A DNA stretch of 64,000 bases. It comes from an uncultured Gammaproteobacteria bacterium. GTDB lineage: Bacteria > Pseudomonadota > Gammaproteobacteria > CAWJOP01. Both the position numbers and the translations under genes were made by a program. Where the stretch lies: assembly GCA_963844535.1 (NCBI GenBank), contig CAWJOP010000002.1, positions 668-64,667 on the forward strand, in the 5' to 3' direction. Below, in pieces: positions 21,545 to 22,301 of the stretch (position 1 is the first letter of the stretch; each line of letters starts with the position of its first letter). The notes under the pieces are model-generated. The model was given only the letters and a program-made list of their open reading frames with translations. It did no database searches and was not told the DNA's origin.

Positions 21545-21567
21545 TGCTAATAAATTGTAAACAGGCC

Positions 21568-22119
21568 CTATCTTGGCCGCTGTTCAGAGGTTAATTCAGA
21601 AGTTTGCCCAAGCAAGGTTTTGATTTGTTCATAAGCTAATTTGTCAGATTGATGAACCAATAATCCAGAAATTTCGTAATTTGCTAACCACGCGGCATAA
21701 CCAGCAGCGAATTGCATAAACGGCGTACCGCCAAGAAGATGCGCTCCTTCAGGCCATCGTTCTTTGGCTAGTTCTACTATTTTTTGGGCACTATTCCAAG
21801 ATTGTGCAACGATAGTACCGTAACCAGGACTGAAGTTATCACCAACTTTATCTGATTCGCATAAGCCATGTGCATAATCTCCAGAACTTACAGCGATGTG
21901 ACTGCCATAGTCATGTAATGTCCAGCCACTTTTTTCGATTTTTATCAAAGAAACTGATTTGTTTTCGGAAGAAGTATTTGCAGAAGAGCCTATATCGAGA
22001 TAAGCGTAAATTTTTTGCAAATAATCCATCCATTCTTTTGGGATAGTCGGATTTTCAAAAATGTCCTTAATAGATTCAAACCAATCAAAGGAATCATTTT
22101 TATTTTCATCATCAGTCAT
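21568..22119 (-). CDS. Hypothetical acidic protein (183 aa) bracketed by palindromic repeats
   Basis: ORF with no recognisable family. Its stop codon lies inside a TGTAAACAGGCCCTA repeat copy (21556..21570). Its start is 18 bp from a 26-bp inverted-repeat arm at 22137. Confidence 0.4.
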   Translation of the reverse strand: MTDDENKNDSFDWFESIKDIFENPTIPKEWMDYLQKIYAYLDIGSSANTSSENKSVSLIKIEKSGWTLHDYGSHIAVSSGDYAHGLCESDKVGDNFSPGYGTIVAQSWNSAQKIVELAKERWPEGAHLLGGTPFMQFAAGYAAWLANYEISGLLVHQSDKLAYEQIKTLLGQTSELTSEQRPR

Positions 22120-22136
22120 ATGCGCCTCAAAAGATA

Positions 22137-22301
22137 TAGGGCCTGTTTACATTTGATTTACCGTAGCGAAAAAAGCAGAGATTCTGCTAGAGTTTTTCCA
22201 AATTTGAGGAGAATACCGGGTCGTATTTGACGAAAATTTGGGAAAACTCTAGCTAATCTTATGCTTTTTGCAGTAGGTAAATCAAATGTAAACAGGCCCT
22301 A
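22137..22301. repeat. ~165-bp imperfect palindromic element with perfect 26-bp terminal inverted repeats TAGGGCCTGTTTACATTTGATTTACC
   Basis: Arms at 22137..22162 and 22276..22301 are exact reverse complements. Inner arms are also complementary (CTAGAGTTTTTCCAAATTTG / CAAATTTGGGAAAACTCTAG). A partial third copy of the terminal motif lies at 21551..21570. Confidence 0.6.

What the first reader, a model, noticed from the sequence alone, without database searches (positions are those of the whole stretch)
21551..22301. Hypothetical gene bracketed by TGTAAACAGGCCCTA repeats and a 165-bp perfect-ended palindrome; cassette-like insertion between yggS and a glycosyltransferase gene
The 183-aa orphan ORF at 21568..22119 has its stop inside one copy of the motif (21556..21570) and its start 18 bp from a 26-bp terminal inverted repeat. 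The repeat's partner lies 113 bp away (22137..22162 / 22276..22301), with nested inner inverted repeats forming a long cruciform. The geometry resembles an integron-cassette attC site or a MITE that carried a gene along. The core GCCTGTT is shared with the MITE family at 378 and 47272.
Basis: seen in the sequence. Interest (0 to 1): 0.55.

Follow-up and report, generated by a model that had tools for sequence, protein, structure and literature searches.

The report
Small transposon copies flanking a resident gene
The 165-bp palindrome is an ordinary miniature transposon (MITE) that landed next to a conserved resident gene, an older insertion left one terminal repeat on the gene's other side, and the gene itself is not a mobile cassette.

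Summary
The sequence features are real. The motif occurs three times, and there is a perfect 26-nt inverted repeat closing a 165-bp hairpin. The cassette reading fails. The 183-aa ORF sits in the same place (GT2–ORF–yggS–proC, next to icmN-L-K-E) in every relative found, from 96% down to 62% protein identity, and it is under purifying selection. What varies is the palindrome. It is missing from a relative that is 98–99% identical in DNA, yet that relative's metagenome holds at least 9 other full copies elsewhere (85–96% identical, mostly TA-flanked). A short copy in the opposite orientation sits in the same spacer of a 75%-identity relative. The outer 16–18 nt match the ends of TA-flanked IS5-family insertion sequences in Ralstonia and Burkholderia. 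They also match small palindromic elements in several Legionella species. The motif at the ORF's stop is a lone 26-nt terminal repeat, a remnant of an older insertion. Its TA+G supplies the TAG stop, a pattern seen at other genes. The window has no integrase and no transposase. As a side result, the ORF's predicted fold matches only LvgA, a Dot/Icm coupling-complex adaptor. The finding is an ordinary MITE, a new member of a known kind.

The parts
22137..22301 (.). Complete MITE copy of 165 bp, counting the TA on each side (element proper 22139-22299). It sits in the spacer between the GT2 stop and the ORF start.
   Evidence: Perfect 26-nt terminal inverted repeats and a hairpin of -83.6 kcal/mol, z = -14.6. 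Absent from L001/L002, which are 98-99% identical in flanking DNA. At least 9 further full copies, 85-96% identical, lie on other contigs of the same metagenome.
22137..22162 (+). Left terminal inverted repeat (TA + GGGCCTGTTTACATTTGATTTACC)
   Evidence: The outer 18 nt are identical to the end of an IS5-family IS in Ralstonia (L007), and 16 of 18 match a complete IS in a B. thailandensis plasmid (L036).
22276..22301 (-). Right terminal inverted repeat
22170..22269 (.). Inner imperfect inverted repeat (arms 22170-22216 / 22223-22269) that forms the body of the hairpin. Its core, AAATTTGAGGAGAATAC..TATTTGACGAAAATTTG, is conserved among copies.
21545..21570 (-). Lone terminal repeat (in gene orientation TAGGGCCTGTTTACAATTTATTAGCA), the remnant of an older insertion. 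It fills the whole ORF-yggS spacer and supplies the ORF's TAG stop.
   Evidence: Matches 15 of 15 and 21 of 23 positions of the terminus. Present with 3 differences in L001/L002. Absent from L037, L040 and L004, where ORF and yggS overlap as ATGA, and from L003.
21568..22119 (-). Conserved 183-aa gene, resident rather than cargo. Its predicted fold resembles LvgA, the Dot/Icm coupling-complex adaptor.
   Evidence: 13 homologues at 61-96% identity with 60 invariant columns. Codon-position identity follows the order 2 > 1 >> 3. Synteny is conserved. The AF2 model has pLDDT 79.8. The only significant Foldseek hits are four LvgA chains, TM 0.49-0.59.
22305..23168 (-). GT2 glycosyltransferase gene, the upstream neighbour in the same operon-like run
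   Evidence: PF00535. Adjacent to the ORF in every relative whose contig reaches upstream of the ORF.
20876..21544 (-). yggS-type PLP-binding protein gene, the downstream neighbour
   Evidence: PF01168, with conserved synteny
375..512 (.). Copy of a second, related MITE subfamily (ends AAAGCCTGTTCAAAATCTC)
47269..47417 (.). Second copy of the related subfamily. It provides the last 8 codons and the TAG stop of murE.

Best explanation
The 165-bp palindrome is a non-autonomous miniature transposon (MITE). It has 26-nt terminal inverted repeats beginning GGGCCTGTTTACA, an imperfectly palindromic body, no coding capacity, and a TA on each side. It belongs to a family that is multi-copy in this lineage of Dot/Icm-bearing, Legionellales-like bacteria. 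Its termini are those of IS5-family insertion sequences (two-ORF, DUF4096 + DDE transposase). The inferred mechanism is that such a transposase, supplied in trans, binds the two terminal repeats and integrates the element at a TA, which is duplicated. Because the element starts with G, landing in the TA of a TAA or TAG stop codon recreates a TAG at the same position. Gene ends and short operon spacers are therefore tolerated sites, and copies pile up there. The 183-aa gene is an old resident of a GT2-ORF-yggS-proC gene run. It looks bracketed only because each of its two short spacers was hit separately. An older event between ORF and yggS has decayed to a single terminal repeat. A younger event, or one since lost in the closest relative, left the full copy between GT2 and the ORF. 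Shown directly: the repeats, the presence/absence difference, the multi-copy spread, the TA flanks, the terminus match to IS5-family elements, and the conserved synteny. Inferred: mobilisation in trans, TA as a true target duplication, and the order of events.
For: Synteny GT2-ORF-yggS-proC(-DUF2845)-icmN-icmL-icmK-icmE is kept in L001/L002 (96% aa), L037 (75%), L040 (73%), L003 (66-69%) and L004 (62-65%). The window and L001 are 98.1-98.7% identical over 8 kb, with a single indel exactly at the palindrome. The metagenome scan with the 20-mer GGGCCTGTTTACATTTGATT returned 10 contigs, all from the same metagenome as L001. They hold at least 9 full copies, seven of 165 bp and two of 143 and 233 bp. 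BLAST identities to the window copy are 96.4, 94.5 and 89-91% for the seven 165-bp copies; the 143- and 233-bp variants align only in part (74-91%). Flanks are mostly TA. The genome scan with the 18-mer terminus found the same terminus on 40-270-bp palindromic elements. Hosts were Legionella anisa (4 loci), L. bozemanae, L. steigerwaltii, Legionella sp. PATHC038 and several Legionellales or Gammaproteobacteria MAGs. One full-length relative of the window subfamily was found (L019). The same 18 nt begin an IS5-family IS in Ralstonia (L007). A complete 0.83-kb copy in a B. thailandensis plasmid (L036) has TA flanks, GGGTCTGTTTACA / GGTCCTGTTCACA ends and DUF4096 + DDE_Tnp_1 ORFs. L037-L039 carry a roughly 60-bp copy in the same spacer but in the opposite orientation. 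Its arm is 97% identical to the window copy although third-codon identity of the adjacent ORF is only 49.5%. L040, a closer relative of L037, has none, so that insertion is independent and recent. A TAG stop built from TA plus the element's first G is seen at the window ORF, at L043 187-1230 and at L047 3619-3987. Three other genes end inside an element. In the relative, genes L043 187-1230 and L047 2713-3456 and 3619-3987 are likewise bracketed by copies.
Against: No transposase with matching ends was found in the window, in the relatives' contigs or in the Legionella loci. The only transposase-bearing partners are in Burkholderiaceae. The empty site in L001 is not clean: it lacks 178 nt, made up of the 165-bp copy plus 4 and 9 flanking nt. 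The TA duplication is therefore inferred from flanks, not demonstrated, and the direction of change (gain in the window versus loss in L001) is open. Only one full copy and one remnant of this subfamily lie in the 64-kb window, and the window's own genome was not in the genome collection scanned. How a single terminal repeat was left behind is unexplained.
Confidence: 0.85

Rival explanations
1. Integron-type gene cassette: the ORF is cargo and the palindrome is its attC recombination site, inserted by an integron integrase.
For: The palindrome is imperfect inside with perfect ends, and the ORF had no family assignment.
Against: The ORF is syntenic in all relatives. No tyrosine recombinase or any integrase domain was found in the ORFs of 150 aa or more in the window. 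The palindrome lies upstream of the ORF, whereas an attC follows its gene. The ends read TAGGGCC...GGCCCTA, with no GTTRRRY / RYYYAAC cores. Copies are scattered singly on many contigs with TA flanks rather than in an array.
Confidence: 0.01
2. Composite or MITE-mediated mobilisation: two element copies captured the ORF and moved it here as a unit.
For: Terminal-repeat sequences lie on both sides of the ORF in inverted orientation, 23 nt at 91%. Genes bracketed by copies recur in the relative.
Against: Both termini abut the ORF with the element bodies pointing away from it. The ORF therefore lies outside both elements, and the left element has no outer end. The ORF occupies the same position in relatives that have no repeats at all (L003, L004, L040). 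The two flanking insertions have different ages: the remnant is shared with L001 and the full copy is not.
Confidence: 0.02
3. Host-encoded structural element rather than a transposon: a REP-like or regulatory hairpin (terminator, RNase III site or mRNA stabiliser) kept between GT2 and the ORF for expression control.
For: The hairpin is very stable in the transcript orientation. A terminator-like stem plus T-run lies inside it at 22188-22174. An element also occurs in the same spacer in the L037 lineage. Correia and ERIC elements are known to affect mRNA processing (PMC10969869).
Against: It is absent from the 98-99% identical relative and from L040, L003 and L004. In L037 it is in the opposite orientation and internally deleted. 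The termini equal IS5-family IS ends and the flanks are TA. Terminator-like hits in the region are not enriched, 3 found against 1.7 expected. A secondary, exapted effect on GT2/ORF expression is not excluded.
Confidence: 0.07
4. Same element, different history: the full copy was already present in the common ancestor of the window organism and L001, and the L001 lineage lost it through one imprecise 178-nt deletion.
For: The L001 site lacks 13 nt beyond the TA-flanked 165-bp copy (ATAC on one side, TATCTTTTG on the other), which a single deletion explains. Long palindromes are deletion-prone (general knowledge).
Against: The number of events is the same as for a gain plus a separate 15-nt indel. 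The window copy still has perfect 26-nt terminal repeats and is 96.4% identical to another copy, which fits a young insertion. No outgroup close enough to decide was found.
Confidence: 0.35

Closest known systems
IS5-family insertion sequences with two ORFs (DUF4096 + DDE_Tnp_1), as in Ralstonia (L007, L035) and a Burkholderia thailandensis plasmid (L036 2003-2832). From memory these traits fit the IS427 subgroup; this was not checked against ISfinder.
   Same: The outer 16-18 nt of the terminal repeat (TA GGGCCTGTTTACATTT) and the TA on both flanks.
   Different: Those elements are about 0.83 kb and encode a transposase, and their interior is unrelated. They sit in Betaproteobacteria. No such IS was found in the window or its relatives.
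Correia / NEMIS elements of Neisseria, the classic bacterial MITE
   Same: About 100-160 bp, roughly 26-bp terminal inverted repeats, TA target, intergenic or operon-spacer location, and hairpin transcripts cleaved by RNase III (PMC10969869; the 26-bp TIR and TA target are from my own knowledge).
   Different: The sequence is unrelated as far as I recall (not tested here). No promoter, IHF site or RNase processing has been shown for the present element.
QMITE1 and QMITE2 of Coxiella burnetii (PMC5896051)
   Same: MITEs in a Dot/Icm-bearing Legionellales host, with about 50 copies per genome, often overlapping the 3' ends of genes.
   Different: QMITE1 is 300-400 bp with 2-3-nt direct repeats. 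QMITE2 is 150-190 bp with 7-11-nt direct repeats. The present element is 165 bp with TA.
Small palindromic elements of Legionella anisa, L. bozemanae, L. steigerwaltii and Legionella sp. PATHC038 found here (L006, L009, L015, L017, L026, L033, L034). A census reports MITEs in 99.6% of Legionella genomes (PMC11602168).
   Same: Identical 18-nt terminus, TA flanks, 40-150 bp palindromic bodies. The window's second family (375-512, 47269-47417) is 74-77% identical to them over about 130 nt.
   Different: The body of the 22137-22301 copy belongs to another subfamily. Its only full-length relatives are in metagenome Ga0116226 and in MAG BP5.bin118 (L019).
LvgA of Legionella pneumophila (PDB 5X90, 7BWK), adaptor subunit of the Dot/Icm type IV coupling complex. 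This comparison concerns the ORF, not the repeat.
   Same: The predicted fold matches. The four LvgA chains are the only significant Foldseek hits (E 2e-4 to 8e-4, TM 0.49-0.59), while the next hit has E 0.1 and TM 0.23. The gene lies 1.5 kb from icmN-icmL-icmK-icmE.
   Different: No sequence similarity is detectable even with a 78-sequence profile, and there is no NCBIfam or Pfam hit. Distant family members score at the threshold for LPD7, PF18821. Binding to IcmS is untested.

Membership tests
Bacterial MITE (non-autonomous derivative of a DDE insertion sequence) | Terminal inverted repeats | tested here: met
   26 of 26 nt complementary, with 0 expected by chance
Bacterial MITE (non-autonomous derivative of a DDE insertion sequence) | Small size and no transposase gene | tested here: met
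   165 bp. The only ORF touching it (22015-22230, 71 aa) is a mechanical ORF that overlaps the real gene's start. tblastn with the IS5-type transposase finds nothing in the window.
Bacterial MITE (non-autonomous derivative of a DDE insertion sequence) | Many dispersed copies in a genome | tested here: met
   At least 9 full copies plus fragments on 10 contigs of metagenome Ga0116226, which also holds the 98-99% identical relative. Assignment of those contigs to that one organism is inferred. For the window's own genome, only 64 kb could be examined (1 copy and 1 remnant).
Bacterial MITE (non-autonomous derivative of a DDE insertion sequence) | Presence/absence polymorphism at orthologous sites | tested here: met
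   Present in the window, absent in L001/L002. Present as a short, inverted copy in L037-L039 and absent in L040, L003 and L004.
Bacterial MITE (non-autonomous derivative of a DDE insertion sequence) | Target-site duplication | tested here: inconclusive
   TA on both sides of most copies and of the full IS in L036. No clean empty site was found, because the L001 site lacks 13 nt beyond the TA-flanked copy.
Bacterial MITE (non-autonomous derivative of a DDE insertion sequence) | Termini shared with an autonomous IS able to mobilise it | tested here: inconclusive
   18 of 18 and 16 of 18 nt match IS5-family IS ends in Ralstonia and Burkholderia. No partner was found in the same lineage, and mobilisation itself cannot be tested here.
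Integron gene cassette with attC | Integron integrase (intI) and attI nearby, with cassettes in an array | tested here: not met
   No integrase domain in any ORF of 150 aa or more in the window. Copies are single and dispersed.
Integron gene cassette with attC | attC lies 3' of the cargo ORF and carries RYYYAAC / GTTRRRY core sites | tested here: not met
   The palindrome is 5' of the ORF, and the ends read TAGGGCC / GGCCCTA.
Integron gene cassette with attC | The cargo gene is variably present between related genomes | tested here: not met
   The ORF is present at the same site in all relatives.
Composite transposon / gene captured between two elements | Two element copies whose outer ends bracket the cargo | tested here: not met
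   The element termini face the ORF and the bodies point away. The left copy is a lone inner end.
LvgA-type Dot/Icm coupling-complex adaptor (for the ORF) | LvgA fold | tested here: met
With the deeper model, the four LvgA chains are the only hits with E < 1e-3, TM 0.49-0.59. This is a borderline same-fold level.
LvgA-type Dot/Icm coupling-complex adaptor (for the ORF) | Sequence homology to LvgA | tested here: not met
   Profiles A2 and A3 do not hit any LvgA chain in the PDB at E <= 10.
LvgA-type Dot/Icm coupling-complex adaptor (for the ORF) | Binds IcmS and the DotL C-terminal tail, and recruits effectors | not testable with these tools
   Would need a complex prediction with this organism's IcmS and DotL, or a pull-down.
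LvgA-type Dot/Icm coupling-complex adaptor (for the ORF) | Occurs in a genome with a Dot/Icm system | tested here: met
   icmQ, icmE, icmK, icmL, an icmM-like gene and icmN are in the window. The ORF is 1.5 kb from icmN in the window. It keeps a similar distance wherever the contig reaches icmN (L003, L004, L037, L038).

The most novel reading that the evidence does not exclude
The 'orphan' 183-aa gene may be the LvgA-equivalent adaptor of the Dot/Icm type IV coupling complex in a non-Legionella lineage of Legionellales. LvgA has been reported as missing from such lineages (for example Berkiella, PMC9803151). The gene would have diverged beyond sequence recognition and would belong to a wider family of about 120 clusters that touches the LPD7 domain. 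Separately, the TA+G terminus of this MITE family may be a design that lets it insert into stop codons without harm, which would explain its pile-up at gene ends.
Probability: 0.3. Interest if true: 0.5.

Novelty: new member of a known kind. Interest (0 to 1): 0.25.

Why it matters
For genome annotation, a gene bracketed by repeats in these genomes should not be read as a cassette or island. The MITE family lands preferentially in the tiny spacers at gene ends, so resident genes end up flanked by copies. The family gives a set of insertion polymorphisms useful for strain typing of uncultured Legionellales. It also links Legionella-genus palindromic elements to IS5-type termini. Some genes owe their stop codon or last few codons to the element. 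The side result, an LvgA-like fold next to the icm genes, offers a testable candidate for a coupling-complex subunit in lineages where none is annotated.

Tried and rejected
- Integron cassette / attC: rejected. There is no integrase, the palindrome is on the wrong side of the ORF, the core sites are absent and the ORF is syntenic.
- Gene carried by a MITE pair: rejected on the geometry of the ends and on synteny.
- Rfam scan of 21000-23000: only miRNA-precursor models far below their thresholds (20-27 bits against 56-99), which is noise expected for a long hairpin.
- BLAST of the element against plasmids: no match. The 18-mer in viral contigs: no match.
- Literature search for the terminus sequence: no paper.
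- Search for a transposase partner by tblastn in the window and all fetched loci: found only in the Burkholderiaceae loci.
- The GMI1000 copy (L035) is an internally deleted IS with degenerate ends.
- Pfam and NCBIfam on the ORF: nothing. PDB sequence search with two profiles: nothing relevant.
- Source names for 10 distant homologues: none informative. Genomic context of two distant homologues (L051, L053): ordinary chromosomal neighbourhoods with no Dot/Icm genes adjacent.
- Promoter and terminator scan: no enrichment.
- Looking for window-orthologous DNA in the relative's MITE-bearing contigs, to obtain a clean empty site: none overlapped the window.

Full report
OBSERVATION

- TGTAAACAGGCCCTA occurs at 21556-21570 (+), 22137-22151 (-) and 22287-22301 (+). 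No further site appears even with 2 mismatches allowed, against 0.14 expected, and 0 of 100 shuffles reach 3.
- The 26-nt arms 22137-22162 / 22276-22301 are perfectly complementary, 113 nt apart, with none expected by chance.
- Inside lies a second, 74%-complementary inverted repeat.
- The transcript-strand RNA folds into one hairpin of -83.6 kcal/mol, z = -14.6.
- The 183-aa ORF (21568-22119, minus strand) ends with a TAG that is the last three bases of the left motif copy. It starts 17 nt from the palindrome.
- Its neighbours are a YggS-type gene and a GT2 glycosyltransferase.

THE ORF IS A RESIDENT GENE, NOT CARGO

The protein has 13 homologues in public metagenomes at 61-96% identity, all 183-190 aa, with 60 invariant columns. 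Wherever enough flanking DNA was available the order is the same: GT2, ORF, yggS, proC, then (DUF2845) icmN, a short icmL/icmM-like gene, icmL, icmK, icmE. This holds at 96% (L001, L002), 75% (L037), 73% (L040), 66-69% (L003) and 62-65% (L004) identity.

In several relatives the genes overlap. ORF and yggS overlap as ATGA in L037, L040 and L004, and GT2 and the ORF overlap by 4 nt in L004. This is what one expects of a co-translated operon. Codon-position identities (for example 79/91/49.5% against L037) show purifying selection.

THE PALINDROME VARIES BETWEEN RELATIVES

The window and contig L001 (IMG metagenome 3300009787, Ga0116226) are 98.1-98.7% identical over 8 kb. The only indel is a 178-nt block, present in the window and absent in L001/L002. 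It consists of the 165-bp palindrome plus 4 and 9 flanking nt.

A scan of the metagenome collection with the 20-mer GGGCCTGTTTACATTTGATT returned 10 contigs, every one from that same metagenome. They hold seven copies of 165 bp, variants of 143 and 233 bp, and fragments at contig ends. Copies are mostly flanked by TA. BLAST identities to the window copy are 96.4, 94.5 and 89-91% for the seven 165-bp copies. The two variants align only in part, at 74-91%. The element is therefore multi-copy in the closest relative's sample, yet missing at this spacer.

A relative with 75% ORF identity (L037-L039) has a roughly 60-bp, internally deleted copy in the same GT2-ORF spacer, in the opposite orientation. 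Its arm is 97% identical to the window's, although third codon positions of the adjacent ORF are saturated at 49.5%. L040, which is closer to L037, has none. That is an independent, more recent insertion from the same subfamily.

WHAT FAMILY IT BELONGS TO

A scan of 185,579 species-representative genomes with the terminal 18-mer gave 30 loci. Many of these are the ends of 40-270-bp palindromic, TA-flanked elements. Hosts include Legionella anisa (4 loci), L. bozemanae, L. steigerwaltii, Legionella sp. PATHC038, several Legionellales or Gammaproteobacteria MAGs and a Lysobacterales MAG. L019 (MAG BP5.bin118) is a full-length relative of the window subfamily.

One hit (L007, Ralstonia) is the start of an insertion sequence. 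A complete 0.83-kb copy on a Burkholderia thailandensis plasmid (L036) has these features:
- ends GGGTCTGTTTACA / GGTCCTGTTCACA;
- TA on both flanks;
- two ORFs with DUF4096 and DDE_Tnp_1 domains.

Related ORFs in other plasmids are annotated as IS5-family transposases. The termini are therefore IS5-family termini.

The other small-element family in the window (375-512, 47269-47417) is 74-77% identical over about 130 nt to the Legionella elements that carry the 18-mer.

THE THIRD MOTIF COPY

In gene orientation the ORF-yggS junction reads AGA TAG GGCCTGTTTACAATTTATTAGCA ATG. The 26 nt from the TAG to the ATG are one terminal repeat, matching 15 of 15 and 21 of 23 positions. L001/L002 have it with three differences. 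L037, L040 and L004 instead have the ATGA overlap, and L003 has an unrelated 18-nt spacer.

It is therefore a 27-nt insertion older than the window/L001 split. It is the remnant of an earlier element and now provides the ORF's stop codon.

The same TA+G = TAG arrangement ends two other genes in the relative's contigs (L043 187-1230, L047 3619-3987). Three further genes run a few codons into an element, including murE in the window. In the relative, L043 187-1230 and L047 2713-3456 and 3619-3987 are also bracketed by copies. Bracketing is thus a by-product of where this element lands, not a sign of a cassette.

MECHANISM

Shown directly: terminal repeats, dispersal, polymorphism, TA flanks, IS5-type ends, and location at gene ends.

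Inferred: an IS5-family transposase acting in trans; TA as a true 2-bp duplication; and tolerance of stop-codon and spacer sites, because the element's first G restores a TAG.

The element may also affect the GT2-ORF transcript through its hairpin and an internal stem plus T-run at 22188-22174. Terminator-like hits are not enriched, and the closest relative does without the element.

ALTERNATIVES REJECTED

Integron cassette:
- No integrase or transposase domain was found in any ORF of 150 aa or more in the window.
- The palindrome is upstream of the ORF and has no attC-type cores.
- Copies are not arrayed.

Gene captured between two elements: the termini abut the ORF with the bodies pointing away from it.

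Rfam gave only sub-threshold miRNA-hairpin noise. The plasmid and viral collections gave no matches.

OPEN POINTS

- The L001 site is not a clean empty site, so gain in the window versus loss in L001 is undecided.
- No partner transposase was found in this lineage.
- The origin of a lone terminal repeat is unexplained.

SIDE RESULT ON THE ORF

A profile search of 1.84 billion representatives found 122 distant relatives of 160-290 aa. Some score at the threshold for Pfam LPD7.

An AlphaFold2 model built on 78 sequences (pLDDT 79.8) matches four chains of L. pneumophila LvgA in the DotL-IcmS-IcmW-LvgA complexes 5X90 and 7BWK. These are the only hits with E < 1e-3 (TM 0.49-0.59), and the next hit has E 0.1 and TM 0.23. 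A shallower model gave the same top hit. That the matched chains are LvgA is inferred from their length, since they are longer than the other three subunits.

No sequence-level link to LvgA exists. LvgA is reported as missing in some non-Legionella Legionellales (PMC9803151). An LvgA-like adaptor role is a reasonable hypothesis, which I put at about 0.3, but it is unproven.

VERDICT

The finding is an ordinary MITE insertion plus an old remnant flanking a conserved gene. It is a new member of a known kind and of low to moderate interest.

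Noticed in passing
window 375-512 and 47269-47417: Two copies of a second MITE subfamily (ends AAAGCCTGTTCAAAATCTC). They are homologous over about 130 nt to palindromic elements of Legionella anisa, L. bozemanae and L. steigerwaltii. The 47269 copy supplies the last 8 codons and the TAG stop of murE (45769-47292).
   Followed up: partly
window 42828-43001 / 43187-43360: Large inverted repeat with 174-nt arms, 96% complementary, 185 nt apart. A 154-nt piece is 91.6% identical to L043 5878-6031 from the relative's metagenome, so this is another repeat family in the lineage.
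   Followed up: no
window 55805-55948; 61172-61440; 30896-30959: Further palindromes and repeats. There is a 36-nt inverted repeat (92%) at 55805/55913. There are four 21-nt tandem units at 61172-61276 followed by a 55-nt inverted repeat. A 64-nt arm at 61353-61416 is complementary to 30896-30959.
   Followed up: no
window 544-1626 and 61509-63932: recF and gyrB, usually adjacent in bacteria, are both on the + strand but 60 kb apart. Dot/Icm genes, the mur/dcw genes and an AcrAB-type efflux operon lie between them.
   Followed up: no
window 1623-2219, 14352-19490: Dot/Icm type IVB secretion genes: icmQ, icmE/dotG (with repeated 58-nt units at 15298-16015), icmK, icmL, an 80-aa icmL/icmM-like gene and an OmpA-like icmN. 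The host is therefore a Legionellales-type intracellular bacterium, with 38.9% GC.
   Followed up: partly
window 50099-50755: A NYN-domain ORF sits between mraY (48881-49963) and murD (51265-52638), inside the otherwise conserved cell-wall gene cluster.
   Followed up: no
window 4276-4827, 30977-31789, 55971-57407, 9137-11872, 57488-61162: Eukaryote-like or orphan ORFs that look like effector candidates: a SET domain, ankyrin repeats, a kinase-like protein, and two large proteins (911 and 1224 aa) with no Pfam match.
   Followed up: no
L043 25-1379 and L047 2578-4171 (metagenome Ga0116226): In the close relative, whole genes (347, 247 and 122 aa) are bracketed by full MITE copies, and three copies lie within 1.6 kb. 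This shows dense clustering of the element at gene boundaries.
   Followed up: partly
L045 4203-4431: A 233-bp variant of the MITE carries an extra 68-nt segment in its centre, possibly a nested insertion or a longer progenitor form.
   Followed up: no
L016 1192-1241 and L017 5343-5383: Minimal 41-50-bp versions made of little more than the two terminal repeats occur in a Gammaproteobacteria MAG and in Legionella anisa.
   Followed up: no
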